Source of the DNA: the human T2T-CHM13v2.0 reference genome, Homo sapiens
DNA: 64,000 bases
Assembly: GCF_009914755.1 (NCBI RefSeq)
Contig: NC_060928.1
Reading direction: 5' to 3' (one strand)
The position numbers were made by a program, and so were the translations under genes. Positions 9,245-54,082 of this stretch are shown one piece after another. The notes under the pieces were generated by a model. It had not been told where the DNA came from. It was given only the letters and a program-made list of their open reading frames with translations, and did no database searches. Within the stretch, counting starts at the first letter, position 1, and each line of letters starts with the position of its first letter.

Positions 9245-9980
9245 CACCCTTAGGATGTAATCAGCTTCTGACTATTAGACGTTAGAAATACCCTGCACTC
9301 AAAGGTAAGGCCTGAAAAAAACAATAAATTGATAATTCAAGTAGACATAAAATGACTATTTTCAAGAACTGGTAAAGAATTGGTACATTCCGTGCACAGA
9401 AAATTTATCTATGCATTAAGGACACTTTTGGTTCTAATATTTTATGATTCCTTAAATATTACTTTGAATGAGAACAAAAGACATTGAAAGAAAGTAAATA
9501 CAAGCTGAGGTCAAAAGAACTGTTCAATATTCATGATGCTTATGCAATACTTCAATTTGGTATCTAATTTTCTGAAGTATAATTAAACATGAAATTACAG
9601 TCATAAGAAAGATAGCTGTATATAAAGATAAATTATACATTTCCACAATGAATGATCATCAAAGTTTCCTCTTCTCAACTATATGTTATATAATCCTAAT
9701 CATTATCATTAATATTGAGTACCTTAATTGAAGACAAGTTTGACTCAGCAGTAATTCACTTTATAGGTGACCAATTATTCTGTCTGTCACAGACAGCATT
9801 AGAATATGAAAATGGAAGAAATAAAATTTCAGTTTCCAAATATTATGGGATCTAAAAAATGATTTTGTGAACTTTTAAGTTGGAGCCAAATCCATTACTT
9901 TCAGAAATTCTACGTAAGCTGTAAAAAATCCATTTTCTATATAATAGCTCCTTAAAGAAGAGAGCAAAGCAGTTAAAAAA

Positions 9981-12214
<2,234 letters not shown>

Positions 12215-12780
12215 TCAACAAATACTTATTGAGTGATGCTAGCTGTCAGGCCTCTTCTGGATGCTAGAGACACAGCAAGGTATAAGACAGATGAAAGCCT
12301 GCCTATGGGGAGTTTACATGGCTGTTTGGAAATACAAACAAGTACAAAATTAATAGGTAATATCTTAGGCGATAAGTGTACTGAAGAAGTATAAGGTAGG
12401 GCTAAGGCATAGATGACATTTTAAATGGAATAGTCAAGAACAGCCTCTTTGATATAGTGACATTTTAGAAGAGATATGAACTAATTATAGAAAGAATATG
12501 AGGAAAGAAATTCTCCAGCAGAAGGAATAGCAAATGTCAATCTATTGTGGTAGAAATATGTTTGTTGTATTTGGGGAAACTTCAAGGAGATTAATATGAA
12601 CAGAGAGAGCAAAAAGTGAATCAAAATAAATTAGGTCACAGAAAAAGGGCATGCAGATAATTCAAGCTCTGTAGGTCAAGCATAGCCTTTGAATTGAGAT
12701 GGATGCCATTGGATGAGTACATGATCTGATTTATATTTTGGAAGTGAGACAAAGGTTGAAGCATAGATACCTGTACTTTG
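12215..12780. mobile_element. Old L2-like fragment
   Basis: CATTCAACAAATACTTATTGAG...CTAGAGACACAGCA...ATAAGACAGATGAAAGCCTGCC is a typical L2 terminal pattern. Confidence 0.6.
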
Positions 12781-20883: not shown

Positions 20884-20913
20884 AGACATCATGGGTATAA
20901 AAGAAAATTCCAT
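20884..20913 (+). CDS. HTN3: HTN3 exon 4: RHHGYKRKFH
   Basis: catag|AGACATCATGGGTATAAAAGAAAATTCCAT|gtaagt. Confidence 0.97.
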
Positions 20914-27265: not shown

Positions 27266-27304
27266 AAGTTTATTGAGTGATACCAACTGTCAGACACACT
27301 ATTT

Positions 27305-28545
27305 TAGTTGTGCTCTTAGAGGTGTTTAAAATTGTCTCTGAGGACCTTTGCAATTTTGTGGGCTTAGTTGTAAAGTTACCTTTGTCATTTCTGTTTGTTC
27401 TTATTTGAATCTTGTCCTTTATTTCTTCTTTATTAACGTAGCTGGCAGTTTATTGATCTTATTTGTACTTCAAAAAACTGACTTTTGGTTTCATTGATTT
27501 CTTGTATGGTTTTTGGTTCCAAGTTTCATTTACTTCTCCCTCGAGATCTGCCTACATGTGGAGTAGAGAAGTCCTCACTGCACCATGACCTACTCACAGG
27601 AATGGCGGGGTGGCTTAGGCTGTTGATCCAGGCAAAACTGTGTTCTCAGTACCTGGAGATCTGCCTGAATGTGGAGAGGAAATGATCCCACTACACCACA
27701 ATCTATGTCCATAAAGGGTGTGGTGGCTCAGACTAATGTTCCAGGCAAGTAGTGGCTCTAAAGGCCTGAATTTCTACCTGGGAGTAGAGCAGAGACGGCC
27801 CTACACACCACAGTCTTGGGGTAGCAGGAGAGGGCACCTAGTAATGACACATGCAGACTGGTTCTAGGTCAGCAATCTTGTACTTGCAGCATGTCTCATC
27901 ACAAAAGAGAAACAACAGCTCTAGCAGCTCTCCTCTGCACCATGATTTTGAGGTGGCAAAAGCACAATTCTGGTGCCTAGTTTTCCAGTGCTTTCCATAA
28001 TTCTGGCTATGAAGGTTCTTAACCCACTCCAGAGCAGGCAGTTTAAACTCTGGCCTGAGACTCAAAAACCTGCATAGCCATGTTCCCAAGTCACCAAAGA
28101 ATGGCTGACTTTGTATGCACCTGTATTAAAAATGGCATCCTGCCATCAGTCCTGGGTCTGTGAAAATGTCTGCAGATGTTCCCAGTGTCTTTCCTTCATA
28201 GTGTCTCATAGCCTCTCCCCAGGTTAGCTTCAAGGCTTGGAAGAAACAAAATGCTCTCCTTTGGGCTAGGTCGCTCAGATTCTCAGTGGAAAGGTGAGTC
28301 ACAGAGGGAGATGCTCTGCATCTCTCACATACTGGGGCTTCACTCACTTCGGTCAGCTGAATGTTATCATGGGGTATGTTTGCACTTGTTCTCCTCTGCA
28401 GGACCTGAAGTGTCCTTCATGATTCCAATACAATCCCACTTTCCTCCTTGAATTAAAGCTCAGAGACATGATCTTTATGAACTATCTTACTACCTTCAAG
28501 TGGCAGAAGCATGTCAAAAGTCTCTACTCTGCAACCTGAAAAAAA
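27305..28545 (-). mobile_element. Old L1 fragments (ORF2 piece plus probable 5' region)
   Basis: 27305-27535 aligns with the L1 at 49741-49975. The remainder looks like an old L1 5' region (less certain). Confidence 0.55.
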
Positions 28546-28579
28546 AAAAGCAGGAAAAAAAAATCACAACTCGCTTTAT

Positions 28580-30855
28580 TTTCTCTTTTTATTTTGTGTT
28601 TGTTTTGATTTTTATTATTTAAGTTCTGGGATACATTTGCAGAACATGCAGGTGTGTTACATAGGTATACACATGCCATGGTGGTTTGCTGCACCTGTCA
28701 ACCCATTATCTACATTAGGTATTTCTCCTAATGCTATTCCTCCCCTCAGCCCCCACTCCACAACAGGCCCAGATGTGTGATGTTCCCCCTGCTGTTTCCA
28801 TGTGTTCTCAGTGTTCAACTCCTGCTTATGAGTGAGAACATGTGGTGCTTGGTTTTCTGTTCCTGTGTTAGTTTGCTGAGAATGATGGTTTCCAGCTTCA
28901 TCCATGTCCATATAATGGACATGAACCCATTCTTTTTCATGGCTGCATAGTATTCCATTGTGTATATCTGCCACATTTTCTTTATCCAATCTATCATTGA
29001 TGGGCATTTTGGTTGGTTCCAAGTCTTTGCTATTGTGAATACTGCTGCAATAAACATACATGTGCACATGTCTTTATAGTAGAATGATTGATTGATAATC
29101 CTTTGGGTATATGCCCAGTAATGGGATTGCTGGTTCTAGATCCTTGAGGAATTGCCATACTGTTTTACACAATGGTCAAACTAATTTATTAATTACTAAT
29201 TTATCTTTGTGGTGTTCTCTGTATTTCCTGAATTTGAATGTTGGCCTGCCTTGCCAGGTTAGGGGAGTTCTCCTGGATAATATCCTGAAGAGTGTTTTCT
29301 AACTTGGTTCCATTCTCCCCGTCACTTTCCGGTAAATGAATCAAAGGTATATTTGATCTTTTCACATAGTCCCATATTTCTTGGAGGCTTTGTTTGTTTC
29401 GTCTCACTCTTTTTTCTCTAATCTTGTCTTCTCACTTTATTTCATTAATTTGATCTTCAATCACTAATTTCCTTTCTTCCACTTGATCGAATCAACCATT
29501 GAAGCTTGTGCATGCATCACGAAGTTCTCGTGCCATGGTTTTCAGTTCCCTCAGGTCATTTAAGGTCTTCTCTACATAGTTTATTATAGCCATTCGTCTA
29601 ACCTTTTTTCAAGGTTTTTACCTTCCTTGTGATGGGTTAGAACATGAAACTTTAGCTCGGAGAAGTTTGTTATTACCGACCTTCTGAAGCCTACTTGTCA
29701 ACTCATCAAACTCATTCTCCATCCAGTTTTGTTCCCTTGCTGGCAAGGAGCTATGATCCTTTTGGAGGAGAAGGGGCACTCTGTTTTTTGGAATTTTCAG
29801 CTTTTCTGCTCTGATTTCTCCCCATCTTTGTGGTTTTATCTACCTTTGGTCTTTGATGTTGGTGACCTACAGATGGGGTTTTGGTGTGGATGACCTTTTT
29901 GTTGATGTTGATGGTATTCCTTTCTGTTTGTTAGTTTTCCTTCTAACAGTCGGACTCTTCAGCTGCAGGTCTGTTGGAGTTTGCTGGAGGTCCACTCCAG
30001 ACCCTGTTTGCCTGGGTATCACGAGTGGAGGCTGCAGAACAGCAAATATTGCTGCCTGATCCTTCCTCTGGGAGCGTCGTCCCAGAGGGGCACCCACCTG
30101 TTTGAGGTGTCTGTCAGTCCATTCTGGGAGGTGTTACCCAGTCAGGCTACACGGGGGTCAGGGACCTGCTTGAGCAGGCAGTCTGTCCATTCTCAGGGCT
30201 CAAACACCATGCTCAGAGAACCAATGCTCTCTTCAGAGCTGTCAGACGGGGATGTTTAAGTCTGAAGAAGCTGTTTGCTGCCTTTTGTTCTAATATGTCG
30301 TGGCCCCAGAGGTGGAATCTATAGAAGCAGTAGGCCTTGCTGAGCTGTGGTGGGCTCTACCCAGTTCGTGCTTCCTGGCCTCTTTGTTTACACTGTGAGC
30401 TACTCAAGCCTCAGCAATGGTGGATGCCCTCTTCCTGCCAGGCAGCAGCCACGCAGGTAGATCTCAGACTGCTGCGCTAGCAGTGAGCAAGGCTCTGTGG
30501 GCATGGGACCCACCAAGCCAGGCATGGGAAGGTATCTCCTGGTCTGCCGGTTGCTAAGACTGTGGGAAAAGCACATTATTTATTCAGGAGTGTACCATTT
30601 CTCCAGGTACAGTCAGTCACGGTTTCTCTTGGCTAGGAAAGGGAAATCCCACAACCCCTTATGCTTCCCGGGTGAGGCGACCCACCACCCTGCTTTGACT
30701 CACCCTCCATGGGCTGCACTCACTGTCCAACCAGTCCCAGTGAGATGAACCAGGTACCTCAGTTGGAAATGCAGAAATCACTCATCTTCTGTGTCGATCT
30801 CTCTGCGAGCTGCAGACCAGAGCTGTTTCTATTTGGCCATCTTGGAAGCCAGCCC
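28580..30855 (-). mobile_element. L1PA with a large internal deletion: 3' end (28580-29190) joined to ORF1 and 5'UTR (29200-30855)
   Basis: ORFs 28815-29069 (ORF2 C-terminus) and 29201-29407 (ORF1, LQEIWDYVKR...ESDGENGTKLENTLQDIIQEN). 5'UTR end GGCCATCTTGGAAG at ~30835-30848. Confidence 0.88.
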
Positions 30856-30857
30856 AC

Positions 30858-32615
30858 TACCAAAGTAATCTTACCAAAGATTACCAAAGTCATGTGAAAT
30901 GAAAGGCATCTGAGTTAGCCTCTATTAGTCTGATAAGCACTGACTTTTCTTTAAGCCAATAGATAAAAACTCTTTCAAATAATTTGGTAGTGAGATACCA
31001 CTTCCATGTGACACATTCAATTATATAAATATAACAGACATACAAAGGCAGGTCCAGAAGATTTTTCATTTGGCTGTTTTGAAAAAATTTGCTCCCTTAC
31101 TTTAGATTATTAATAAAGAAATGTTACAGGAGCCAACAAAAGGTGAAGGAGAAAATTACCGTCTCTGGCCTTTTCAAATGAGAGAAAGCACCGAACTTCA
31201 GGGATATCAATCTGAAGAATTAGAAACAGAAACGTTTCTTGAGCAAACAGTCATATTATTTTAGAAGAAAAAATCACAATATAAGATTATTTCTCATATA
31301 AAATTAAATTTCTATTATCCTTTTTGTTTACCAAAGGTACCTTTTAATATGTATAACTTTCCTTACATTTCTCTTGTTTCCTTTTACTTCATTTTATATA
31401 CCTCTAAATAATCTTTGAATTAGATAAAAAATGTTTACCTTTTAATAAAAAAAAACACTTTTTAACGTGTTTCTCTGTATTTTTTAAATTGGAAATTAGT
31501 CAGACATTTAATTAATATCTATTACTTAATATAACCTGGAAATTAGTCAGACATTTAATTAATATCTATTACTTAATATAACCTCAGATTATAAATTATA
31601 TGACAACTTTAATATAATGGATTGAAGTGTCCTGATAGTGGGTACGTATCCACAGTGTTTCACCCCTAAGTTATTTCTGCCCTCTTACATGCCTTGTTTT
31701 CTCTCTTCAGAGGTCTGGCACCTCCAAGAAGGCTCAAAAGATGGAGTAACCAGCTCCCATATGCATTTACCTATGAGCCTTGTTTAACTACTTTTGTTGG
31801 GGGTTCCCTGCAGGGCTGCTGTACATCACAGGGGGTCAAACCCCCAGACACTTTCACTTGGCTTCTGGTCACCCAGGGGCACCGTTTGCCTGGGAGGGGC
31901 AAAATGCCTTTTCTCTTCAGAGTGAGAAAACTCAGTCTCCCATTTATCTACGAAAACAACAGTTCAGTTCCTCGCACAAATGTGCAGACAAGACAATTGT
32001 GCTTAATTTGGGGAGAAAAAGCAGTAGAGAAGACCCTTTAGAATATACCTCTCTGAACCAGATACCAAACAGGTTGCCCAAAAAGGGGTCATTTTCCTTG
32101 TCTTTAGAAAAAGGCAATGGAAAAGATCCTTTAGAATGCACCTCTCAAATAGAATTAGAATCCTAAACAACTTCCTAGGAGGAAAAAAAAATGCAGCTCA
32201 GAACAAATCAAGGACCGGCAACCAAAGGGATGTTCAGGGCTCAGGAGGACTTGCCAGTTTCACTAGAGGAGAAGCTCAAAATCAGGGAGGCTTTCAATGG
32301 GTCCTTGCTTGTACCCTAGCTCCAAGTTTGGGCCACTCCTTCAGTGTTCTGACTCTTCTCTGAGGCCCCACATGTTCAGGCAACAAATTGTTGTTGACAA
32401 AAAGAATCAAACTCTGTAAAATATTTGAAGAGATTTATTCTGAGTCAAAAATGAGTGACCAATGGCCTTTGACACAGACCGTAGGAGATTCTGAGAACAT
32501 GTCCCCAAAAATGGCTAGGGTACAGCTTAGTTTTATACATTTTAGGGAGACATGAGACATCAATCAAATCCATGTAAGATATATTATACAATGGATTTGT
32601 ACAGATAGGTGGACA
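30858..32615 (-). mobile_element. MER4-group ERV internal sequence plus LTR truncated at the duplication junction
   Basis: Aligns with 51606-53446. LTR end TGTTGACAAAAAGAATCAAACTCTGTAAAATATTTGAAGAGATTTATTCTGAG starts at ~32392. Confidence 0.8.
31490..31583 (+). repeat. Perfect 47-bp tandem duplication
   Basis: TGGAAATTAGTCAGACATTTAATTAATATCTATTACTTAATATAACC x2; single copy in the paralogue at ~52247. Confidence 0.95.
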
Positions 32616-32788
32616 CTTCAATTTGTCCACTAAGTTCTAAGGGATGTTTCAAGAAACAACCTATGTATGATATCAGAGTTTATCATATTATTTTTGTATA
32701 AAAGGATAGAAGTGAAAAAACTTTTATACTTGATCTTTAGTTATAAAATTAAGATACTAACTATTCTCTCATTTTTCATTTTTCCAAG

Positions 32789-34032
32789 AGAGCTGACGTA
32801 TCTGAAGAGGTAAGTCACCTTCATTCACAGGAAAACTTAATAATCAAACACATATTGAATTTTTACTCTTGTCTTTATTTTCACAGAAATATCATGAGTG
32901 TAAAAGAAAATTCCTTTCAAGGATTCTCTTGATAATGTTGTGCAGTCCAAACAAGTGTTCTTTTCTGATTATTTAATCTCCTGGTATAATCTGTGATCAT
33001 TTTTGAAATATATGTATATTATGAATGGCTAAAGTGTATATTAATTTCACTTACTCATGATACATTGGCAAAAGTCCCACATGTCTTAGAGAATTTAGGT
33101 GGAAGTTCATAATGCCAATTTAAAGAAGTCAATTATTCTCTGAGAACTAAAATAAATTTGGTAAATAATTATGTTGACATAAATAATAGTTAAAAGCCAA
33201 TTCTACTAAGTATAATATATGCCTATACTGCCATATTACATGTGCTGGCAATCACACAGGTAATATGGGAAGTTCCAATCATTTGATTTGTTGATGGTGA
33301 TAAAGTCTTTCAGTTAAACTGGCTATTCTAAATAAAATAGAATATAGTATTTCTTTAATATATTTCTTAATGTGTATCTTTGATATGTCATTATTGTTTG
33401 ATCTCTCATCTTAATGTGATGGAGTTTAAAAAAATTCTTCTTAGTAATATAATAAATACATTGATAAAATGGCACTAAATAAAAACATAAACATTGGGGA
33501 AGGACAGTTATTTGGGTTAAGAGAAGGCAGAGTTAAAGAATGCAGTAGTGACATGGAGAAACTCCACTTAAGTTGGAAGTATTAAATTTTTCTTTCCCAT
33601 AATACTCAATGATGGGCAAAGTAGTAGCTTAAAGGTAGTATTATAAAAAAAAAAGTTTTAATCCTCATTTGGAGTGGTTGCCTGTAATCAGTATTCCCAT
33701 GTGTACTGTAAAACAAGAACTGGCAACAAAGAGTAAAAAGGTAAATGCTTTATGATTTTTACCTACTTTTACATATTTTTTTATAAAAATGATAAATCTA
33801 ACTAGTAGTTTAAAAATGATATTGCAGTTGATATACGAATTGCAGTTGATACAACAAACTAAGCTTTTAAACACATTATTGTGAAACTCTTGCACTGTCA
33901 CTGTCCCAATTATCTACAGCTTTCTCTAGTTCTTGTGTCTGTATGCAGGAAAGGTCTAACCAACATCAGCCATATCCAGACTATTGGCCATATCCAGCAT
34001 ATCCACCATATTACCTATATCCCTATCCATAG
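32789..34032 (+). pseudogene. Histatherin/statherin-histatin-like pseudogene fragment: ex3 32789-32809 (RADVSEE), ex4 32887-32916 (KYHECKRKFL, donor lost), ex5 33949-34032 ([27 protein letters not shown]); 3'UTR homologue ~35608-35800
   Basis: Exon sizes (21 and 30 nt), acceptor contexts (ttccaag, ttcacag, gtatgcag), intron spacing and intron sequence all match HTN3/HTN1. Exons 1-2 are absent. Confidence 0.88.
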
Positions 34033-34331
34033 CCTTACAGTGTTCCTCAGTAACCACAGGACGTAAGTATAAAAGTAGGCTAGGTCTAGTGATATTCTTT
34101 ACTTTCCAAAAATATCCATGCTCACAGTTAAAAGAGGAAAACAAACACGAGATATCAAACAAACAATAGACCCAGTAAGAGATGTGGGAAGGTTTAGCTC
34201 CTTGAAATGTATTTATTTATATAAACACCTCTGAGAGAAAGTTTCTGTCCTGTCGTGGTTAAGAGGCTGGACTCTGGAGAGGAGGAACCCTGAGTTTGTA
34301 TCATGTTCCTGACAACTACTAGTTTCTTTAC

Positions 34332-34685
34332 TGTATTAGTCCGTTCTCATGCTGCTAAGAAGACATACCCAAAACTGGGTAATTTATAAAGGAAAGAGGG
34401 TTAATGGACTCACAGTTTCACATGGCTGGGGAGACCTCACAATCATGGCAGAAGACGAAGGAAGGGGAAAGGAACTTCTTACATGGCTGCAGACATGAGG
34501 GCATGTGCAGGAGGACTCCCATTTATAGAACCATCAGATCTCCTGAGACTTATTCACTACCACAAGAACAGTATGGAGGAAAATGCTCCCACCATTCAAT
34601 TATCTCCATCTGGCCTGCCTTTGACATATGGGGTTTATTACAATTCAAGGTGAGATTCCAGTGGGGACACAGCCAAACCATATCA
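34332..34685 (-). mobile_element. THE1-type MaLR solo LTR
   Basis: TGTATTAGTCCGTTCTCATGCTGCT...GGGGACACAGCCAAACCATATCA, ~354 bp. Confidence 0.92.
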
Positions 34686-36227
34686 ACCTTGAAATTAGTA
34701 GTTTCTTAATCTTCTTTAAACATCAGTTTTCTTATCAACAAAATAGATATTATAATAATACTTAACCTCATTTTAGAATTGGGAAGACTATTAACAAATA
34801 TATTACGTAAAATCCCCTGATTAGAAAGGTGTACAGTTATGACTGCAGATTTCCATGCCACTAATTCTGTTTCAGAATGTTGTTCAAAACTATGCCTTCT
34901 AAAACACAATCTTTGGAGAAGATGTACAAGCACTATATGGGAAATTGTGGGAAATTTACATTATATGCCCTAAGTAAATCCAAGAGCAATTACTGAAAGA
35001 ATCACTAGTATAATACCAACAAGGAGATATAAAAACGTCTTCAATTTCTTTTTTAGAATATCAGTTTTATCTAACTATACACAACATTAAATGTTCTGAA
35101 TTCTGTGCAATATTAAATATTTATCTACAAAATAAAGCAAATTTTTAGAGATTAAAGATAACTTCTACATTCATCAAAGTTGAAATATTTCATGGAATTT
35201 TAAATATTTCTCAGTGCATTGTGAGATTTTATTCCAATTGAATATCCTGTTGACATTAATGATATGGGAAACAGCCTGAACTTGATCTTCTAGGCATTTG
35301 ATAATAGCTGATGAAATTTAATCAAGAAAGGATACATTTAAAATATTATTTGGGGAAAATAAATATGAATAAAGTATGTAGGCTGTATTTAAGTGGGAGA
35401 AAAAATAGAATAATAATGGAACTTAAGAGAAATTTAAATTTAAATTGCAGGTGTTGGATGATAATTTTTATTTATTCTGATACCCATTTAACAAGTATTT
35501 AATTGCGTATTATGTGTCAAATATTATTTTGAGCCCTGCATTATATTAGCCTAAATGATCTGTAAATAGCTATGCTGCACTAGGAAGAATATAAATGTTT
35601 TCTACAGGAGTTGGTTGAATTACCAAAAAGACAAAGTAAAATGAAAGACTATGATTTAGTGTATTTTCTCTGTTTCAAGATGACTGACTTCCTAATGGAT
35701 GTTTGATTGGATAGTTGCAATTTCAAACCATTAAGCTGTTTGCAGTGCTGTTTCTGAGTAATAGAAGTCCATTCTTTTTATAAGTGCAATATATTTTAAA
35801 CAATTCTTATGCAAAAGTTCTTTATTTCTATTTTCTATATTTACAAATATAGCTATTCCTTACATCACTTCTTTTACCCAGTTTGAGAAGCACTGACTGA
35901 AGCACTCTATGTCAGAGGTCCTTTAGAGTCAATTATTCCTAATTTAGTCTGTAGTATTTTATATTTTACAAGCATATAATCCTTAAGCTCAGCTAGATTA
36001 TTGGGCCTATTTATTCTGACATTTGATTGGCTCTGGGTTTCCTTTGGTACACCTAATTTTCTCACCCTGGAAGTTTCTCACATTTTTTACCTCAGTTTCT
36101 ACAAGACAGAAGGTAACCGCACCGCCCCCCAGCCCCCACCCACCCCACTCATTGTCACTGCACAGTAAAGGGAACACAGACCCCAAACCATCTAATGCCC
36201 CCCATCAGTTTGTCTGCAATGACTTTC

Positions 36228-36272
<45 letters not shown>

Positions 36273-36506
36273 CTTTAAGTTTTAGGGTACATGTGCACAA
36301 CGTGCAGGTTTGTTATATATGTATACATGTGCCATGTTGGTGTGCTGCACCCATTAACTTGTCATTTAGCATTAGGTATATCTCCTAATGCTATCCCTCC
36401 CCACTACTCCCACCCCACAATAGTCCCCGATGTGTGATGTTCCCCTTCCTGTATCCATGTGTTCTCATTGTTCAATTCCCACCTATGAGTGAGAACATGC
36501 AGTATT
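36228..36506 (-). mobile_element. Short L1PA 3' fragment whose tail has become a (TTA)n microsatellite
   Basis: (TTA)~14 then TACTTTAAGTTTTAGGGTACATGTGCACAACGTGCAGG...GAGTGAGAACATGC. Confidence 0.93.
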
Positions 36507-39268
36507 TTCATCACAGGAGATTCGGAGAATAAGGAGGAGGAGGAGAAGCAGAAAATGGAGGAAGAGGAGCCCAGAGAAGAAGAGGAGAAAGAGGAGGAGG
36601 GGGAGAAGCAGAAGAAGGTGAAGAAGGAGGATAAAAACCCAGCATAAATATCACTATAAAAACCCATTCATGGATTGTATCCATAAGCAACCAGTGTATT
36701 GCCACAACTGTGATAAGACAGTGGCTCTTTGTTGATACTTCCCTTGTAATTGAAAGGCATGGCCTTTTCAAAGAACGTGATGTTTGCTTATAGAAGACAA
36801 GATATCTGTTTTACTTAATTATAAAATATGAAGCCATGTTCTGGTCCATCAGTCTTCTAAAATGGCTTACTGTTCCTGGAGGGTGAGACCATCCCTAGCA
36901 TGAGAAGGTCACTACTGTATTTCTATGCCACCATGCTTGTTCCACCTGTCATACATAATCACCACACTTCCTAACTTGGAGAAGCAGAAAATCATGGGTG
37001 AAATAATGCCTACATTTTGGTGTTCCAACATAAAGTGTATATGCTTTAGGTTTAATTGTAGTTTTTAAATGAGTATATTGACATCTGCCATATCTTACCT
37101 GTTAGTTTGCTGTTTGGTAGTGTGCTTTTGGACTATTAGTTTGCTTTTTGTGCACTAGAACATGAATATCTTAGATCCACTGGAACTGTACCTAATATTG
37201 TTAGAAAAACGAACTAGGGAAGAAATGAGAGGAGGCAGAGAAGAAAAGAAGAAAGGAAGGAAACCGCTTGACATTTTGTAATTAATTAAAGCAGGGTATA
37301 TTTTTTAAATCAGACATAGTTCAGTAGTTACTGAACCATGAGATGGTGCAGTGGCTCATGACTGTAATCCCAGCACTCTGGAAGGCTTAGGCACGAGGAC
37401 CACCTGAAATCAAAAGTTCAAGAACAATGTTGACAAAATTGTGAAACCCATCTCTATAAAAAATAAAATTAAAAATTTAGGCTGGTGCAGTCGTGCGTAC
37501 CTGTGTCTCTAGCTACTTAGGAGTATGAGGGGAGGTTTGCTTGAGCCCTGTAGTTCCAGACTGCAGTTAGCTATGATTGCACCACTGCACTCCAGCCTGG
37601 GTGATGAATGCAGCCTATGTACCTATTAAAAAAAAATAGTCACTGAATCCTATGTAACTTTGTTTCATTGAGAATGTAAAGAGAATGGGTTTGTTTTGTG
37701 CCAGAGAAGAGACCTTATATCTCTGATGCTTAGAAATTTCATGCCAAAAGAACAATTTAAATCTAATATACTTGAATTACATATTTGCCTAAATAAATAA
37801 TTTACATTTTTGTATATTACCTATAGAATACCATAATTTCTAATAGGACTGTTCAAATTAGCATAGATGATTTATCTAAGAAATATTTCCTTTAAAAACT
37901 CACACACAAATTCATTTTATTTTATTTTATTTTACTTTCCTATTTTACTTTAAGTTCTGGGATACGTGTGCAGAACATGCAGATTTGTTGCATTGGTAAA
38001 CGTGTGCCATGGTGGTTTGCTGCACCTATCAACCCATCATCTAGGTTTTAAGCCCCACATGCATTAGCTATTTGCCCTGATGCTCTCCCTCCCTTCCCCA
38101 CCACCAGGCCCTGGTGGGCGTTGTTTCCTTCCCTGAATCAGACACAAATTTAAAACATAATTTCTAATTAGTGGGATCAAGCTAAAGACCATGCGTTTAT
38201 AAATCTCTTAAGTAGTTTTTCTATCTTTAAAGTACACAAAGAGTTTCCTGGACATGTTCTTAAAATTCCGGTTCCAGGTGTACACCACAAGATTCTGACT
38301 CAGTAAGTTTGGAAAAGTAGAATAAGAATCTGCATTTCAACAGCTACTAGCTGATGCTGATCATGATGGTCGCATGTGGCACCCTCTGAGGAACAATGGA
38401 CTGGGCTGTATAACTTATCTGAACTTTAGAAAAGAGTTTTTAATACTCAGTTCTTAGCACATCAAATTCTCCAACCGGTAGAGAGTAGGTGAATGCTTAT
38501 ACATGTTTGCCTATGAATTAAATTAAAATTCTGTTTTTCTCTTTCTGTCTAATATAGTTATTTCAACAAATGGCCTCTATAAATATATATGAACCTCAGA
38601 AAACTCCAGGGAAGTAAATTCAAGTTTCTAAACATAAGAAATCAGTTTTATGTGAGAGATATGTGACCAAGCACCTAGAATCTTTTGACATTAAATATGA
38701 GAATGTTTTTATCATATGATATCCAAAAGATGATTGAATTTTGGCAAATGTTTACATTCACTTTATTACTTAAAACACTCAAAGTCAATGTAAAGGTAAA
38801 AATACAAGATAAATAATGATTTGTAGGAAAACTTTTGAAGTATAGAATGACTCCAATTTTATTATGCCAATTATCACTATTTACTAGAGAATGTGTAAAA
38901 TTTTGATAACATGGTAAGTATTATTTTTGACATAGCGTTGTTCCATCTTGGACATATATTTGTTGAAAAGTAGTAGATGGTATTCTACAGAAACATCTTT
39001 ATCACTGCAATCATTTCTATGCCTGGTTTCCTCCAGCGTGCTTTTCCGTTGTCTGACTCACTCAGGGCTAGACTAACACTGGGATTAGCATGTGATGGGT
39101 CCATTCGCTTTCCGGTTGCTTTGTCTTCACAATGATCTATTGTAAAATCACCTGGTTAAGTTTATTTTTAGAATTTGTAGAGACAGATTTTGGGCATTAC
39201 TTTCCGTCTCAATCATATGATCTCCTAATTGATGCTATTTAGAAAAACAAAAGGGAGATTTCAACGTG

Positions 39269-39276
39269 TTTAAATA
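39269..39276 (+). promoter_or_regulatory. HTN1: HTN1 TATA-like box TTTAAATA
   Basis: Paralogous position to the HTN3 box, just upstream of exon 1. Confidence 0.85.
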
Positions 39277-39451
39277 CATCAGCCATATAGAAAAGGACAT
39301 CTCTTGAGACTTCACTTCAGCTTCACTGACTTCTTGACTCTCCTCTTGAGTAAAAGGTAATATGTTCAAGTACAATCTAATATTATATATTAGCATAAGC
39401 TTTTGTTTGCTAAAATCAATAGTAACCCACTTATGAAAATGTATATTATCT

Positions 39452-39781
39452 ATTTAAATCTAGTTTACTTGAATTGCGTATTTGCCTAAATAAATAATTT
39501 ACATTTTTGTATATTACCTATAGAATACCATAATTTCTAATAGGACTGTTCAAATTAGCATAGATGATTTATCTAATAAATATTTCCTTTAAAAACTCAC
39601 ACACAAATTCATTTTATTTTATTTTATTTTACTTTCTTATTTTACTTTAAGTTCTGGGATACGTGTGCAGAACATGCAGATTTGTTGCATTGGTAAACGT
39701 GTGCCATGGTGGTTTGCTGCACCTATCAACCCATCATCTAGGTTTTAAGCCCCGCATGCATTAGTTATTTGCCCTGATGCT
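39452..39781 (+). repeat. 330-bp direct copy of 37755-38084 inserted in HTN1 intron 1
   Basis: Near-identical sequence from ATTTAAATCT to GCCCTGATGCT; absent from HTN3 intron 1. Confidence 0.93.
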
Positions 39782-41639
39782 GTAATGTGTACAATTTTGT
39801 ACTCGGGATCTGAAGATGACTTCCAGATCTCAATTCCTATGAATTAACACCAGCAATCATCACGCAAAGTAAATTATGTGGAATATGGCAATGTATTACA
39901 TCCTCTCTGATGGTGGGACCTCAATTAACTCTTTTTATTTCCTTGTCTAGATACCTAATATCTACTTTCTTAATTATTAATTCTACATTTAACTTAAAGC
40001 AGGAGTTCAAATTTTACAAGAAGATACTGATAAATTCTCTCTTGGTAAATATATTATTATAAAGGTTTATTTTTAAAAATTTACTTTCTTCTTAATAGGA
40101 AACTATTTTATTACTTTTTTATTGACCTTTCCATCATTTAAAACAGTGCTGTTATAATGCAAAGCATATACTGTGTAAGAGTTAGTCATCTCAATCTTAC
40201 TAATTTGTTTAACTCATTTTCATTCATTTGTGTTATGGCAGAAAAGAAAGAGTTTACTGTTCCAAATTTTTATTGATGTGTTACTTGGGAAATATGTTTT
40301 TCATAACCATTAATTGTATATTGATTATCTATGTTCATTTATCTATCAGTTTATGTGTTAGTAAAAGAAGACCAATTTCTTAGAACCCTTTTTTATTTTG
40401 TACTTGCAACAGAATTGACAATCATTAACAACAGTAAAATTCTCATGCCTTTTGTATCATAAAAAGAGTTGTAGTAGGATTTATATATTAGGTAATAGAA
40501 AAACTTCAAAATACATAATTTTTATAGTTAGTCCTATAGTAGAAGTTTCCATTTAAATGAGTGAAGCAAAATGAACGAATAAATAATATGGTAAATGCCA
40601 TAAATCTTGGGTTCTGCTTTTCATGATAGAGATGTAGGGCTGTTTAAGAGCAGGACATTTTATTATAATTAGATGAAAAATGTTACTGTAATGTTATATC
40701 ACAAATGACAGGAAAGAGAGATTAGAAAAAAATTTTTAAATTACCTATTAATGAATTACTTTATAACTGCAATTAACAGCCAAAAATGCCATGTAACTGT
40801 AAGTCTTGTGGTAATTGTATTTTCCAATGGAAATGCTTTTATTTACGTTTGTAATTTAGAAATAAGTAACCTGCTATACTTTTTTATATCTGCAGAGGAA
40901 CTGGATACACTTGCATATACATAATTATAAAAGCATATCAGAGTCCCAGATGAGGCTAACTTTGTTGAATAATATTATTTGAAATATTGAATAATCTTCA
41001 CCAGTTCAACTTCTCAAAGTAGATACAATCATTTTCCCTGTGAATTCTCTTCATTTTATTTTTCGCTACCCAATATCACTAATGTTCTAATCTCAGGGTT
41101 ACACCATCTGTGGATTCTGTAATAGAACTCTGGCTCATAGTCACTGACTTTATTATAAAGCCAGTCTCCATTGCTTTTCATTCTACTTTCCTAATATCTC
41201 TTTACACTGTACCTTAATTAGCATTCTTAATGTCATTATATAAGTCCCCTGTAGTGTCACAACAACCTAAGTGGTCATCTTTTCTCCAGTTTTGTCCTCC
41301 CTATGTGTTGAACTGTTTGCATTTTTAACATGCTTTCCTCTCTGTTTTATTTCTTTATAGGCTCCCAACACCACCCTTTACTCATTCCATATAATCCAAC
41401 TCAAGCTTGCCTTTCTTCATTACCTTCTTACTCCCATCCTCTTGGTCTGTTTAAGATGTCCATTTGTGTGTTTCATTAGCATATTAATATTTCCAAATCA
41501 GAGCACTCACCTTTACTTATCAATTCATGAGGCCATGCCTGGGGCTCACACCTGTAATCCAAGCATTTTGAGAAGACAAGGCAGGAAGATTCCTAGAGCC
41601 CAGGAGTTTCAGAACTGCCTGGGAAATATAGTGAGACTA

Positions 41640-41852
<213 letters not shown>

Positions 41853-41937
41853 TCATCAATAGAAGTTTGATGAATGAATGCATGAAAGAATGTGATTACT
41901 GATTTTTCATGTTTGATTTTATAGGACTCAGCCAACT

Positions 41938-41988
41938 ATGAAGTTTTTTGTCTTTGCTTTAGTCTTGGCTCTCATGATTTCCATGATT
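41938..41988 (+). CDS. HTN1: HTN1 coding exon 2: MKFFVFALVLALMISMI
   Basis: ATG at 41938; donor gtaagt at 41989. Confidence 0.97.
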
Positions 41989-43182
41989 GTAAGTATATCT
42001 GGAAATTTTAAATACTACATTCTCAGTACTTATCCCAAGTGTCTCTCTTATTCCTTGTGTTCTGGTATATACTCATGTTGACCTCAATACAGCTTTATAA
42101 GCTTTAATATTTCCCTACAAGGAGTTTCTTTGAATTAACTTATGTAAGTTCTTTAAGGACTTGGAATAGATATTCATCACATACCTACAAACACTCAAGT
42201 ACAATTACTTGAATGTAAAAGTAAGAGAAAATTTAGCGAGCTTTTTAAATATGTGGGACTAAGATCTGTGAAAGTATCTTTAAATGTGAAAAGCTCTAGA
42301 CCATCTGAAGTTAGAAATCTGAGGAAAGAAAAAGGTGCACTTCAATGGAACCCAAGTATTAGAGGGTGTCAAAATAGGAATTTTCAAGTCATTTCTTGCA
42401 CAACCTACTCTTAAAGTCAGCATACAATTATTTAATTCTTCCTAAAATAAAGCTGCTTATTTTAAACCATAAAACAAATCTCCATATTTATTAAGTGTCA
42501 TGAGTTCCCAGCTCTATTGTCATTTACTACTGTGTATTAGTAGGAAAAGCACTTGACCTCTTTGGAGCTCTTTCTCCTTCTCTACTTCCACCGCCTCTTC
42601 CTCCTCCTCCTCCTCCTCCTCTTTCTATGAACTTAATAGAAAATTGGTCACAAAAGAATAATAATACTCCAAACTATCCACTAAATTCTAATGAATGTTT
42701 CGAAACTGAATTGGTTATGATATCACAGTTTATCACGTGATTTTATTATAAAAGGATAGAAGTAGAAAAATAAACAAATAAGAACAGAGTAAAGCATAAT
42801 GCCTGTCTCTATCAGCAAATAAAATATTTGTATGTTGGTAGCTTTTGAGCTACATGGAACATATTCATATAAAAAACAATCCAGAGTTTCATTTTTCAGT
42901 TTCCACTCTCTTATTCACCAGTGACAGACTTTTCCTGCCTTACATAAAAAAGATATATAAACCAAAATGAGTTGATATTTGAATATAGCACATTAATTAT
43001 AGCATTTACCCCTCACTCATTTTGAAGATGTCATAAAGCTAAAATAACTAATTTAGTCTGTCATCAACCAAAGAATGCCTCCATTCTGTTTAATCATATA
43101 TGTGGCTAAGTCAATATTTATACTTACTCTTGAATTATAAAATTAAAATATTAATTATTTTCTCATTTTCTTTTTTTCCAAG

Positions 43183-43203
43183 AGCGCTGATTCACATGAA
43201 AAG
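43183..43203 (+). CDS. HTN1: HTN1 exon 3: SADSHEK (S-x-E phosphorylation motif)
   Basis: ccaag|AGCGCTGATTCACATGAAAAG|gtaag. Confidence 0.97.
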
Positions 43204-43281
43204 GTAAGACATTTTCATTTACGGGAAAACTTGATAAATAAACATATATTGAATTTTTAATCTTTTCTTTTTATTTCATAG

Positions 43282-43311
43282 AGACATCATGGGTATAGAA
43301 GAAAATTCCAT
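43282..43311 (+). CDS. HTN1: HTN1 exon 4: RHHGYRRKFH
   Basis: catag|AGACATCATGGGTATAGAAGAAAATTCCAT|gtaagt. Confidence 0.97.
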
Positions 43312-44358
43312 GTAAGTGTTCTTCTGATAATGTGCACTCTAAATAAATTTTCCTCTCTGACTATTTATTCTCCTAGAAGAATCAATAGTTGTCTCTCAAA
43401 TATATCTATATCATTAATTGCTAAAGTGCACATTGATTTCATTTATTTATGATGCAAAGGCAAAAAGTCACAAATATCTTGTGTCCTAAAAGCATTTCAA
43501 CAGAAACTCAATTCCACCTGAAATAAGTCAATTGTCAATTATTCTCTGAGAACTTATCTTTGTCCTGTAAATAATTTCATTGACCTAAAGAATAGTTGAA
43601 ATCCTAATTCTATTAAGTATAACATATGCTTAATAAAGCATAGAGGCTACTCATGTAATGTGGTAAGTTTCTACCTTCTGAATTTTTGAGGATGATACAG
43701 TCTTTAAATTAAACTGACTGTGCTAAATTAGACAGAAAATTGTATTTCTCTAACATTTTTCTCACTGTATGTATATAAAGTCTCATGTTATTTTGACCTG
43801 TAATATCAATATGAATCTGGGTTCTAAAGTTCTCCTTACTAACATAGCAAGTATACATGTTAAAAAAGCACCAAGTAAAAAGATGCATAAAAATGGATGA
43901 AGACTGTTTGTGTTAACAGCAGTGGGTATGAAAGAATGTAGGAGTTGTAAAGGAAAGTAAGATCACTAAAGGAATGACATTAAGAAGCACCACCTAAGTT
44001 GGAAACAGTAACTTAATCCTTTCCATAATACTCAATAGTGAGCAAAATAGTAGCTTGGAGGTAATATTTTAAAGAAGATTTGAACCCTGGTTAGAGAGGT
44101 TACCTATAATCAGTGTTTCCACCTGTGCTATTGTCACAAAAATATCAGCAAACAGTAAATACTTTATCATTTTTACCTACTTTTAGACATTTTTCTGATA
44201 AAAAAGAAAAATGTAAAAGTTTGAAAACATTTATGTAGATAAAATACAAGGTCTTAACAACTTTAGCAATCTAAGCTTTTAATGACAGTTTTTGAGAAAC
44301 ACTTGTACCGTCATTCTCTATTCTCTGCAATTTGCTCTCTCCTTTTGTGTGTATGCAG

Positions 44359-44430
44359 GAAAAGCATCATTCACATCGAGAATTTCCATTTTATGGGGAC
44401 TATGGATCAAATTATCTATATGACAATTGA
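44359..44430 (+). CDS. HTN1: HTN1 exon 5, coding part: [23 protein letters not shown]
   Basis: tgcag|GAAAAG...AAT TGA; 18 nt longer than HTN3 exon 5. Confidence 0.97.
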
Positions 44431-44609
44431 TATCCTTAGTAATCATGGGGCATGATTATAGAGGTAAGCTGACTCTAGTTACTTGTCTTTCTAGAAGTGT
44501 CAACACTGACAGTTTAAAAAAAAAGCCATAAGCTAACAACCATTCCAGTTTAAGAAATGTAGCATGGGTTAGCTCCTTGAAGTGTATTCATTTGTATAAA
44601 TGCTTCTGA

Positions 44610-46392
44610 AGCTGTAGATATGTGGTGTTATTTCTGAGGTCTCTGTTCTGTGCCATTGGTCTGTATGTTGTTTTGGTACTGGTACCATGCTGTTTTGGTA
44701 ACTGTAGCTTTGTAGTATAGTTTGAAGTCAGGTAGTGTGATGCCTTCAGCTTTGTTCTTTTGCTTACAATTGTCTTGGGTATATGAGCTTTTCTTTGGAT
44801 CCATATGAAATTTAAAGTAGTTATTTCTAATTCTGTGAAGAATGTCAATGGTCATTTGATGGGAATAGCATTGAATCTATAAATTACTTTGATCAGTATG
44901 GCCATTTTCATGATAATGATTTTTCTTATCCATGAGAATGGAATGTTTTTCCATTTGTTTGTGTCCTTTCTTATTTCCTTGAGCAGTGGTTTGTAGTTCT
45001 CCTTGAAGAGGTCCTTCACATCCTTTGTTAGCTGTATTTCTAGGTATTTTATTCTCTTTGTAGCAATTGTGAATGGGAGTTCATTCATGATTTGGGTCTC
45101 TGCTTGCCATCTGATATTCAACAAACCTGACAAAACAAGTAATCAAGAAAGGATCTCCTATTGAATAAATGATGCTGAGAAAACTGGGTAGCCATATGCA
45201 GAAAACCGAAACTGGACCCCTTCCTTACACCTTATACAAAAATTAACTCAAGACAGATTAAAAACTTAAATGTAATACCCCAAACCATGAAAACCTGAGA
45301 AGAAAACTTAGGTGATACCATTCAGGACAGCCTTTGGCAAAGACTTCATGTAAAAAAATGCCAAAAGCAATTGCAACAAAAGCCAAAATTGACAAATGGG
45401 ATCTAATTAAACTAAAGAGCTTCTGCACAACAAAAGAAACTATCATCAGAGTGAACAGGCAACCTAGAGAATGGGAGAAAATGTTTGCAATCTACTCATC
45501 TGTCGAGCTCTAATATCCAGAATCTACAAGGAACTTAAACAAATTTACAAGACAAAAACAAACAACCCCATCTAAAAGTGGGCAAAGGACATGAACAGAT
45601 AGTTCTCAGAAGAAGACATTCATGCAGCCAACAAACAAGAAAAAAAGCTTATCATCACTGATCATTAGAGAAATGCAAATAAAAATCACAATGAGATACC
45701 ATCTCACTACCAGTCAGAATGCTGATTATTAAAAAGTCAAGAAACAATAGATGCAGGTGATGCTGTGGAGAGACAAGAACACTTTTACACTGTGTGTGAG
45801 AATGTAAATTAGTTCAACCATTGTGGAAGACAGTATGGTGATTCCTCAAGGATCTAGAACCGGAAATACCATTTGATGCAGCAATCCCATGACTGGGTAT
45901 ATACCCAAAGGAACGTAAATCATTCTACTATAAAGACATATGCCTACATATGTTTATTGCAGCACTATTTACAATAGCAAAGACATGGAACCAACCCAAA
46001 TGACCATTAATGATAGACTGGATAAAGAAAATGTGGTACATATACACCATGGAGTACTATGCAGCCATACAAAGGAATGAGATCCTGTCCTTTGCAGGGA
46101 CATGGATGAAGCTGGAAGCCATCATCCTCAGCAAACTAACACAGGAACAGAAAGGAAACAGCACAAGGTCTCACTCATAAGTGGGAGCTGAACAGTGAGA
46201 ACACGTGAAGACAGGGAGGGGACAACACAAACCAGGGATGGAGGGGAGGGAGTAAGGGAAGGTAACAGAGGACTGATCAATAGGTGCAGCAAACCACCAT
46301 GGCACACATATACCTATGTAACAGAACTGCATGTTCTGCATATGTATTCTAGAACTTAAAGTAAAATTAAAAAATAAAATGAAATAAAATAA
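44610..46392. mobile_element. 5'-inverted L1 in HTN1 intron 5 (same insertion as in HTN3)
   Basis: Inversion junction at ~45106 (TCTGCTTG|CCATCTGAT). TSD AAATGCTTCTGA / AAATGCCTCCGA. Confidence 0.92.
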
Positions 46393-48431
46393 AAATGCCT
46401 CCGAGGGAAAGCTTCTGTTCACCAGTGTTAAGATGCTGAGTTCTGGGTAGGAACTATAGTTCCAGTTCTGACCTGGAACTATTCCTAATCTTCTCCATAC
46501 CTCAGTTTTCTAATCGACAAATACATATTATAATACTACTTAAGCTTTTTATAGAGTTGGAAAGACTATTGAGAGACATTATATAGAAGCCCTTGTTCTG
46601 GAAGGTGTATGGTTGTGGCCATAGGCTTCTCTGCCACTAACACTGTACATGGATGTTATTTGAAGTTTTCTGTCCTAAAATGAAATCTTTGAAGAAGTTG
46701 CACAACCACCATCTGGGAACTCATAAAAAATTTACATTTTATGCCTAAGCAACTCTAATGAGCAATTGCTATAGGAATGACTAATATAACATCAACAAGG
46801 AGATGGGAATTTTCAAGGAAATAGAAAATGGTAACAATTTCCTTTTCATAAAGTCAGTTTTATTTATCTATATTCACAGCATAAAATGTTCCAAAATCTA
46901 TGAGATACTAAAGATTACATTTCAAAATAAAGCAATATTTTGGAGATAACAGAGTACTGTTCTACAATTCAAAGCTGAAATAGTTCAAAAGGTGTCAAAT
47001 ATTTTTTAATGTATTGGGACATTTTATTCATATTGAATTCCTGCTCTTTGTGATATCAGAAAAAGCCTGATCTTTATCCTCCAGGTGTTAGATAATTGCT
47101 GATGACATTTAATCAGGGGAGGATATATTTAAAATATTATTTGGGGGAGATAGATGAAATGTGTAGGCTATATTTAAGTGGAAGAATAAAGTAAGATGAT
47201 GATGGAAAACCTCAAGAAAAATTTAAATTTAATTGCAAATGCTGAATGATAATTTTTATTTATTCTGATACCCACTTAATGAGTATTTAATTGTCTACTC
47301 TATATCAAATAGTATTTTGGTCCCTGCATTATAATAAATAAAACTATCTATAAATACATACTTTCTGCCAGCAAGAGTATAAATTTATTTATAGGAGTAT
47401 CCATTTTGAAGATAAAGTGTTATTTTCTTTTTCTTCACAGGTTTGACTGGCAAATTCACTTTTTACTCATTTATTCTCATTCATCATACCGCATCACACT
47501 ACCACTGCTTTTTGAAGAATTATCATAAGGCAATGGAGAATAAAAGAAAGACCATGATTTAGTGAATTCTGTGTTTCATGATACTTCCCTTCCTAATTAT
47601 CATTTGATTAGATACTTGCAATTTAAACTGTTAAGCTGTTTTCACTGCTGTTTCTGAGTAATAGAAATTCATTCCTCTCCAAAAGCAATAAATTTCTAGC
47701 ACATTATTATGTGTATGCTCTTTATTTCTCTTTTTTATATTTACATATATAAAGATTTCTTTCTTCACTTCGTTTTCCCAGTTTGAGTAGCACTGACTAT
47801 AGTACTTTATACCATAGCTCTTTTGAAATGATTATTTTTAATTTAGCATGTTATATTCATTTTGTGTTACAAACATATGGTCCTCAATCACATCTAGATT
47901 ACTAGACCTACTGATACGAACATTTGATTTGTTTCTGGTGTCCTTTGCCACAGCACATTTCTTAGCCTTGTACATTCCCACATTTCTTATCTCAGGCCCT
48001 ACAGTCCAGAAGATGACCCCCATGTCACTCCACAGCAGTAGGCAGGCACTCAGAACACAAACCATCTAATGCTCTCTATCAGTTTGTCAATATAGCCATT
48101 GAACAAAAATTTATTGAGTGATACCAGCTGTCAGATACTGTTCTAGAGGCTGCAGTCACAGAAAAAGAGTCAGAGCCCTGTTGTCAGAGCTTTTACATTG
48201 CAATTGGGAGATGCAGACAAAAAGTAAACAAAGAACACATGACTTAGGCAATAATAAGTGTGCTAAAGAAGTGTAAAGCAGGACTAGGATATAGAAGCAG
48301 CCTCAAATAGGATAGTCAAGGATAACCTCTCTGGTATAGGTGACCTTTTAGAAAAGATATAATTTAAATATGGGAGTAAGCATGAAGAAAGACATTTTCA
48401 AGCAGAAGAAATAACAAGTACAAATCCATTG

Positions 48432-50331
<1,900 letters not shown>

Positions 50332-50334
50332 ATA

Positions 50335-53225
<2,891 letters not shown>

Positions 53226-53226
53226 T

Positions 53227-53826
53227 GTTCACAAAAATAATCAAACTGTAAAATATTTGAAGAGGTTTATTCTGAGTCAAAAATGAGTGACCAATGGCCT
53301 TTGACACAGACCATAGGAGATCCTGAGAACACGTCCCCAAGGCAGTCAGGGTACAGCTTAGTTTTATACATTTTAGGGAGACATGAGACATTGATCACTA
53401 CATGTAAGCTATGTTATACATTGGTTTTGTCCAGAAAGGTGGGACAACTGGAAACAGGGGCTTCCAAGTCATAGATAGATTCAACAATTGTCTGATTGCC
53501 AATTGAGTCAAAAAGTTAGGTTATTGTCTAAAGACTTAGGAAAGACTGGGTTAAGATAAGGGGATGTGGACACCAAGGTTCTATCATGCAGGTGAAGCTT
53601 CCATGTAGCAGGCTTTGGAGAAAATAGACTGTAAATGTTTCTTATCAGACTTAAAGAGTCTGTTCTATCAGTAATTCCAACAGGGACGAGAGTATAAAGA
53701 GGCATGTTTAACCCTCTGCTTCCCATCATGGCCTGAACTAGTTTTTCAGGTTAGCTGTGGAATGTTCTTGCTGAGAGGAGTCCGTTCAGATGGTCAGGGG
53801 CCTTACAATTTTAGTTTTGGTTTGCA
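53227..53826 (-). mobile_element. Complete MER4-type LTR
   Basis: Reverse complement starts TGCAAACCAAAACTAAAATTGTAAGGCCCCTGACCATCTGAACGG and ends ...CAAATATTTTACAGTTTGATTATTTTTGTGAACA. Confidence 0.8.
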
Positions 53827-54082
53827 CCTGTAGGTATTAACACACTCAAGGTTGTTTTACAGTTCATTTAAGTCCTGTGTTGTTTTCTTAGTTTTTCTCT
53901 ATTATTTTTGACATTTTTATTCCTATATTTTCAATTTTCTTCCTTACAATTTTAGTTTTGGTTTATATCTGTAGGTATTAACACACTCAAGGTTGTTTTA
54001 CAGTTCATTGAAATCCTGTGCTGTGTTTTTAGTTTTTCTCTATTATTTTTGATAGTTTTAGTCTTATATTTTCAATTTTCTT
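53801..54082 (+). repeat. ~141-bp tandem duplication spanning the LTR terminus
   Basis: CCTTACAATTTTAGTTTTGGTTT...TTTTCAATTTTCTT occurs at 53801-53941 and 53942-54082. Confidence 0.9.

What the first reader, a model, noticed from the sequence alone, without database searches (positions are those of the whole stretch)
32580..32650. Breakpoint of the duplication that created HTN1 and HTN3 is readable at base level
Seen: the MER4-type LTR downstream of HTN3 matches the complete LTR downstream of HTN1 up to ...CAGATAGGTGGACA (cf. CAGAAAGGTGGGACAACT at ~53432-53449). It then switches abruptly to ACTTCAATTTGTCCACTAAG, homologous to histatin intron 2 (HTN3 20261 ACTTCAACCTATCCACTAAA), with only ACT-scale microhomology. 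Inference: the duplicated unit ran from intron 2 of the histatherin-like gene through the proto-histatin to mid-LTR. This explains why the relic lacks its promoter and exons 1-2, and dates the duplication after the MER4 insertion.
Basis: partly seen in the sequence, partly recalled or inferred. Interest (0 to 1): 0.7.

Follow-up and report, generated by a model that had tools for sequence, protein, structure and literature searches.

The report
Histatin gene duplication junction
A half-cut retroviral-type repeat is joined to the middle of a dead salivary gene exactly where the HTN3 copy meets the HTN1 copy; this is likely the original seam of the known histatin duplication, though a later deletion would leave the same scar.

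Summary
The junction is real. 32135-32612 is 91-92% identical to the LTR element behind HTN1. 32615-32719 is 79% identical to intron 2 of HTN3/HTN1 (E 3e-12 genome-wide). It is the present boundary between two tandem copies of a unit of at least 22.5 kb, 90.8% identical over 14.0 kb. The LTR element predates the duplication: its two local copies form a clade with 100% support.

(1) The donor copy of 32615-35230 is gone from the human genome, so the join is placed only to 32612-32618 against about 20%-diverged surrogates; an ACT overlap needs two single-base gaps. (2) Five later deletions of 1 kb or more hit this unit, one with the same kind of join, so a deletion across the true seam remains possible (about 25%). 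(3) All four relics in the cluster lack exons 1-2, so that loss is weak support.

New here: a 7-bp inverted repeat straddles the join, as snap-back end joining would leave (chance 2-16%). The duplication itself is published; I found no paper on its breakpoint. This is an ordinary mechanism of modest interest, directly testable in primate assemblies.

The parts
32612..32618 (.). Junction between copy 1 (HTN3 side) and copy 2 (HTN1 side); six possible positions
32609..32615 (.). Left arm of a perfect 7-bp inverted repeat (GTGGACA) that spans the junction
32624..32630 (.). Right arm of the inverted repeat (TGTCCAC), 8-base loop
32392..32612 (-). Truncated LTR of copy 1 (about 220 of about 600 bases); strand inferred from the position of the internal sequence; MER4-group name recalled
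30858..32391 (-). Internal remnant of the same LTR element in copy 1, 88-92% to the HTN1-side copy
53226..53829 (-). Full-length LTR behind HTN1; 53426-53449 is the stretch matching the left side of the junction
50337..53225 (-). Internal remnant of the LTR element in copy 2 (with a short Alu insert at about 52845-52968)
32615..36230 (+). Statherin/histatin-family relic gene of copy 2, from mid-intron 2 to past exon 6; about 350 bp of intron 2 missing at 32719
32789..32809 (+). Relic exon 3, splice sites intact, reads RADVSEE (STATH exon 3 reads GADSSEE)
   Evidence: read by hand from the alignment
32887..32916 (+). Relic exon 4, reads KYHECKRKFL (histatin-like); splice donor lost
   Evidence: read by hand from the alignment
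33949..34074 (+). Relic exon 5, 27 open Pro/Tyr-rich codons then a stop
9980..12215 (+). What is left of the same relic in copy 1 (end of intron 5, exon 6), 89-93% to 35231-36230, split by an L1
9980..32612 (+). Copy 1 of the duplicated unit as it survives (contains HTN3, 17265-25344)
32615..53449 (+). Copy 2 of the duplicated unit (contains HTN1, 39299-47709)
27298..27305 (.). Control: join of a later 1.6-kb deletion in copy 1, abrupt, with 3-4 shared bases

Best explanation
The join at 32612-32618 is the boundary between two tandem copies of a unit of at least 22.5 kb, and is likely the original seam of the duplication that made HTN3 and HTN1, likely sealed by non-homologous end joining with at most a few shared bases. 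Shown: boundary, tandem order, no long homology and no mobile element at the join, LTR element older than the duplication. Inferred: the unit ran from intron 2 of the relic gene to mid-LTR, and the upstream (donor) relic later lost everything left of 9980 in a separate deletion. Weakly inferred: the right-hand end folded back on a 3-base primer, copied four bases matching the LTR and annealed (snap-back, synthesis-dependent microhomology joining).
For: Collinear blocks 9980-32612 versus 35231-53452: 12730 of 14018 aligned bases identical, after dropping three spurious blocks of 55, 46 and 43 bases. The LTR is cut in copy 1 and whole in copy 2, as a tandem duplication ending in the LTR predicts. 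No paralog of anything right of 53452. No exon 1-2 trace in 25345-32614, with scores at shuffle level while STATH scores 131-152. The two half-LTRs are 89.9% identical versus 78-86% to 19 dispersed copies, group at 100% support, and share 9 rare bases; only 1 other pair of 210 reaches 9. Crude odds from deletion coverage give 0.81-0.90 that the original seam survives, given no mobile element at the join. Annotated HTN3-HTN1 spacing is similar in gorilla and baboon. A 7-bp inverted repeat spans the join and meets the three SD-MMEJ criteria of PMC5728401.
Against: The donor is absent: the best other matches to 32615-34234 are 66-79%, so the left end is unverified and needs an extra deletion. Five later deletions of 1 kb or more exist in the unit, two without a mobile element at the join. 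Orangutan and gibbon have 3.6 and 2.8 kb more DNA between HTN3 and HTN1 than human, judged from model coordinates; where it lies is unknown. An inverted or direct repeat of 7 bp or more occurs at 8-16% of ordinary positions, and an inverted one at 2-6%. I noticed the repeat after the fact, and the LTR itself carries nearly the same bases.
Confidence: 0.62

Rival explanations
1. The duplicated unit was larger (possibly with the whole relic gene and the whole LTR, possibly made by unequal crossing-over between repeats), and a later deletion removed the true seam and fused mid-LTR to intron 2.
For: A deletion across the seam gives the same picture in one genome. Later deletions removed 19% of the unit, and 32% outside the HTN gene and promoter. 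The control deletion at 27298-27305 has the same abrupt join with 3-4 shared bases. All four relics lack exons 1-2. Orangutan and gibbon intervals are longer.
Against: Only 2 of the 5 deletions are free of a mobile element at the join, which gives about 10-19% by coverage. The orangutan and gibbon excess can be covered by known gaps: a 1.6-kb deletion, a 2.0-kb deletion and 2.5-3.9 kb missing inside the L1 at 29188-29202 if that is one element. The baboon gap between models is 14.9 kb versus 14.0 kb in human, though the baboon model ends are uncertain.
Confidence: 0.25
2. One complex replication event made both the join at 9979|9980 and the join at 32612-32618 (template switches giving a deletion plus a duplication), so the upstream copy never kept the front of the relic.
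For: Both joins are free of inserted elements and fall in the same relic, 2.6 kb apart in copy-2 coordinates. One event replaces two.
Against: No templated or shared sequence links the two joins; the longest repeat at 9979 is 4 bases. Separate deletions are common here.
Confidence: 0.1
3. The two LTR elements are independent insertions and the join is an LTR landing in, or deleting part of, an intact relic gene.
For: The shared left insertion site is lost in both copies, so no shared target duplication can be shown.
Against: Same position, order and strand. Identity of 88-92% equals that of the host flanks. The two copies form a clade with 100% support. The local partner is the only hit covering query 1-1288 in one piece among 40 candidates scored.
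Confidence: 0.02

Closest known systems
HTN3/HTN1 gene duplication (Pajic et al. 2025, PMC12457735; Sabatini et al. 1993, seen only as cited there)
   Same: [quoted passage not shown] The 9.8% corrected divergence found here fits that age on recalled primate rates.
   Different: That paper works at gene level; 'breakpoint' has 0 occurrences in its main text. Unit size, the co-duplicated relic, the LTR and the join are not in the passages I saw.
Tandem duplications with microhomology joins; snap-back SD-MMEJ (PMC5728401, PMC7407515)
   Same: Non-homologous join with 0-3 shared bases, and a repeat motif of at least 4 bp within 30 bp holding primer and microhomology parts. Tandem duplications of 3 kb-1 Mb often show such ends.
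   Different: Those are fresh breaks with known parents in flies or tumours. Here the join is tens of millions of years old, the donor is missing, and such joins also form deletions.
Bovine histatherin (HSTN)
   Same: Described as a histatin-statherin chimera. The relic has a statherin-like exon 3, a histatin-like exon 4 and a Pro/Tyr-rich exon 5.
   Different: No HSTN sequence was available to compare. Pajic et al. regard HSTN as a lineage-specific duplicate in artiodactyls. The relic is 70-76% identical to HTN, STATH and LOC105377269 alike, and groups with the last in one of three segments.
MER4-group LTR elements (name recalled)
   Same: About 600-bp dispersed terminal repeat with 4048 first-look candidates and an adjoining internal region with dispersed copies.
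   Different: No repeat library was on hand, so the family and subfamily are not confirmed.

Membership tests
Tandem segmental duplication breakpoint | Two collinear same-strand copies in tandem | tested here: met
   12730/14018 identical bases in collinear blocks
Tandem segmental duplication breakpoint | Left arm of the join continues in the downstream copy, with single-copy DNA beyond | tested here: met
   LTR whole at 53226-53829; no paralog beyond 53452
Tandem segmental duplication breakpoint | Right arm of the join has its donor, in original context, in the upstream copy | tested here: not met
   No match above 79% to 32615-34234 elsewhere in the genome; the upstream relic begins at 9980. 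Needs a later deletion.
Tandem segmental duplication breakpoint | Join shared by all carriers of the duplication and absent from single-copy outgroups | not testable with these tools
   No primate genomes held; only gene coordinates from a supplement
Snap-back SD-MMEJ junction | Repeat motif of at least 4 bp, within 30 bp, holding primer and microhomology repeats | tested here: met
   7-bp inverted repeat 32609-32615 / 32624-32630; criteria
Snap-back SD-MMEJ junction | Motif beyond chance and present in the parental donor | tested here: inconclusive
   Background 2-6% (inverted) or 8-16% (either kind); HTN3 and HTN1 differ from the junction at one base in each arm and the donor is missing
Non-allelic homologous recombination junction | Extended homology across the join | tested here: not met
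   0-3 shared bases
Histatherin (HSTN) ortholog | Statherin-like start plus histidine/basic middle | tested here: met
   Exons 3-5 read (resemblance only)
Histatherin (HSTN) ortholog | Groups with bovine HSTN in a tree, syntenic position | not testable with these tools
   No bovine sequence on hand
Statherin (PF03875) | Exon 5 peptide matches the Pfam profile | tested here: not met
   Relic exon 5: no family at E 10; STATH exon 5 control E 4e-12
MER4-group LTR element | Match to the family model | not testable with these tools
   Only dispersed-copy searches; name recalled

The most novel reading that the evidence does not exclude
The seam is the untouched 25-35 million-year-old join, with a readable snap-back repair signature. 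The duplication copied the back half of a then-working histatherin-type gene (statherin start, histatin middle, Pro/Tyr tail) that primates had beside STATH and HTN and that New World monkeys may still carry intact.
Probability: 0.15. Interest if true: 0.5.

Novelty: new member of a known kind. Interest (0 to 1): 0.3.

Why it matters
It gives the extent (at least 22.5 kb), order of events and a single diagnostic join for the duplication that gave catarrhines a second salivary antimicrobial gene. The join can be typed across primates in one alignment. It also shows that the STATH/HTN cluster holds four unannotated or mis-typed relics, which bears on the unresolved origin of statherin-, histatin- and histatherin-like genes. 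It changes no view of gene function or of how duplications form.

Tried and rejected
Donor copy of the right arm: not found in the genome search or in 60 kb upstream and 20 kb downstream.

Exon 1-2 relics between HTN3 and the join: none.

The relic at -6.3 to -3.2 kb as the missing front of the upstream copy: rejected, as it is only 73-80% identical to the 32615 relic.

Origin of 9220-9979, left of the upstream relic: single-copy, unexplained.

ACT as a true 3-base overlap: needs two gaps, not preferred. A longer overlap via family variants was also rejected: 0 of 19 dispersed LTRs have ACTCAA there, and 12 of 19 have ACTGGAA like the local copy.

Rfam over 30000-37000: 0 matches. Searches were out of frame and were repeated.

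Baboon spacing is of limited use because the model ends are unclear. Chimpanzee rows of the supplement repeat human coordinates and were dropped. Macaque and green monkey rows have no HTN coordinates.

Kawasaki and Weiss 2003 was not held. Sabatini 1993 and Rijnkels 2003 were not read.

Full report
1. The observation. A self-comparison of the window gives 32135-32612 against 52969-53442 at 91.2%, and 32615-32719 against HTN3 20261-20366 (79.4%, E 1.8e-16) and HTN1 42666-42770 (78.5%). The HTN1 match holds genome-wide at E 2.8e-12, and the HTN3 match scores 95.5 against a shuffle maximum of 34 in 1000. Dispersed copies show that the LTR behind HTN1 spans about 53226-53829, so the HTN3-side LTR keeps only about 220 bases. 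Internal sequence of the element lies to its left in both copies. The name MER4 is recalled; no repeat library was available.

2. The unit. Piecewise alignment gives collinear blocks from 9980/35231 to 32612/53452, with 12730 of 14018 bases identical (three short spurious blocks dropped), or 9.8% corrected divergence. Each copy is relic gene, histatin gene, old L1, LTR element. Adding pieces kept in only one copy, the unit was at least 22.5 kb. Nothing beyond 53452 has a paralog in copy 1. The join is therefore the present boundary between copies; this step is shown.

3. Order of events. The two half-LTRs are 89.9% identical, against 78-86% to 19 dispersed copies; those 19 are the other loci returned of 40 candidates scored out of 4048. 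The two group at 100% support and share 9 rare bases. An L1 at about 28570-30857 is in copy 1 only, while copy 2 runs through that point unbroken. Its 5' part is 85-89% identical to its best relatives, so it likely came soon after the duplication. Pajic et al. [quoted passage not shown]

4. What 'base level' can mean. A simple tandem duplication leaves the donor of the right arm in the upstream copy. It is gone: other matches to 32615-34234 are 66-79%, and the upstream relic starts abruptly at 9980 after single-copy DNA. The 32615 relic is collinear with STATH and HTN across that point, so the upstream copy is the derived one. The join can only be read against HTN3, HTN1 and STATH. Three parses fit: the LTR ends at 32612 with no overlap and one substitution; it ends at 32615 with one gap in a G run and a 1-base overlap; or it ends at 32617 with two gaps and ACT shared.

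5. A possible repair signature. Folding 32580-32650 shows a 7-bp stem across the join, 32609-32615 with 32624-32630 (z -2.2). It meets the three criteria for synthesis-dependent microhomology joining in PMC5728401 (passages seen), with a 3-base primer and four copied bases that match the LTR end. Among 1500 ordinary positions per set, an inverted repeat of 7 bp or more spans 2.3-5.9%, and an inverted or direct one 7.9-16.1%. It was noticed after the fact, HTN3 and HTN1 differ by one base in each arm, and the LTR has nearly the same letters. It is suggestive only, and it does not separate duplication from deletion.

6. The main rival. A later deletion across the true seam would look identical. 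Five losses of 1 kb or more are visible: copy 1 left of 9980 (at least 2.6 kb), copy 1 equivalent of 48140-49740, copy 1 equivalent of 50337-51604, copy 2 equivalent of 12216-14183, and copy 2 equivalent of 27535-28560. Direction is backed by paralogous flanks of STATH and LOC105377269 or by dispersed copies. The 1.6-kb one has an abrupt join with 3-4 shared bases at 27298-27305, so the look of the join is no proof. Three of the five have a mobile element at the join; this one has none. Coverage arithmetic gives 0.81-0.90 that the original seam survives; this is crude and rests on five events.

Model coordinates in the Pajic supplement give HTN3 start to HTN1 coding start of 24.7 kb in human, 28.3 kb in orangutan and 27.5 kb in gibbon, taking their short HTN1 models to begin at exon 2. 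Gorilla start-to-start is 22.2 kb against 22.0 kb, and the baboon gap is 14.9 kb against 14.0 kb. The excess can be met by known gaps, but it could include the join.

7. The relic. It has an intact exon 3 (RADVSEE, like STATH GADSSEE), an exon 4 like histatin (KYHECKRKFL) whose donor site is lost, and a Pro/Tyr-rich exon 5 open for 27 codons. It is 70-76% identical to HTN, STATH and LOC105377269, so it is an old paralog. It resembles the description of bovine histatherin (PMC10074679, passages), but orthology was not testable and it misses Pfam Statherin. No exon 1-2 relic lies between HTN3 and the join. In the window and the 80 kb of flanks only STATH, HTN3 and HTN1 have exons 1-2, and all four relics lack them. 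Several changes at the exon-4 donor hint that the relic was already decaying; this is an inference.

8. Literature. Eight searches gave no paper on this junction. 'histatin + MER4 + LTR' gave 0, and no paper listed held all four of HTN1, HTN3, segmental duplication and breakpoint (listing only). Also seen as passages: PMC12155162, PMC11505306, PMC7407515. Older subscription papers (Sabatini 1993, Rijnkels 2003, Kawasaki) were not readable and may describe the relics. Supplement figures and 70 of 73 supplement parts were not read in full.

9. Verdict. A real copy boundary of a known duplication. It is probably the original seam (0.62, or 0.72 with the complex-event variant), with a later deletion at 0.25. 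The mechanism is ordinary and the detail appears undescribed. Interest 0.3.

Noticed in passing
L012/L013, window -24.5 to -17.7 kb (LOC105377269): The annotated lncRNA locus is a STATH/HTN-family relic with exons 3-6, stops in exons 4 and 5 and no exons 1-2; it groups with the 32615 relic in the exon 3-5 segment.
   Followed up: partly
L014, window -6298 to -3200: A further unannotated relic: histatin-like upstream region joined directly to the end of exon 5 and intron 5.
   Followed up: partly
window 51680-52879 and about 30930-32134: The RefSeq enhancer lies inside the internal part of the LTR element behind HTN1; its 88-89% paralog behind HTN3 is not annotated as an enhancer.
   Followed up: no
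window 25731-27268: SVA-like insertion (name recalled) with a 10-base target duplication just behind HTN3, absent from the HTN1 copy.
   Followed up: partly
window 37755-38084 and 39452-39781: A 330-bp stretch from upstream of HTN1 is repeated in HTN1 intron 1 at 97.6%, a recent local duplication absent from HTN3.
   Followed up: no
window 53801-54082: 141-bp tandem duplication (91%) across the outer end of the full LTR.
   Followed up: no
window 8486-9979: DNA left of the upstream relic has no paralog in the cluster although other intergenic stretches do; holds one old repeat at about 8755-9216.
   Followed up: partly
window 29188-29202: 5' and 3' parts of an L1 meet with about 2.5-3.9 kb missing, if they are one element; the 3' part is less like the same relatives (74-82% versus 87-88%).
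   Followed up: partly
window 34320-34700: About 380-bp insertion in intron 5 of the relic, THE1/MST-like by recall.
   Followed up: no
PMC12457735 Supplementary Table 1: The chimpanzee rows repeat the human accession and coordinates.
   Followed up: no
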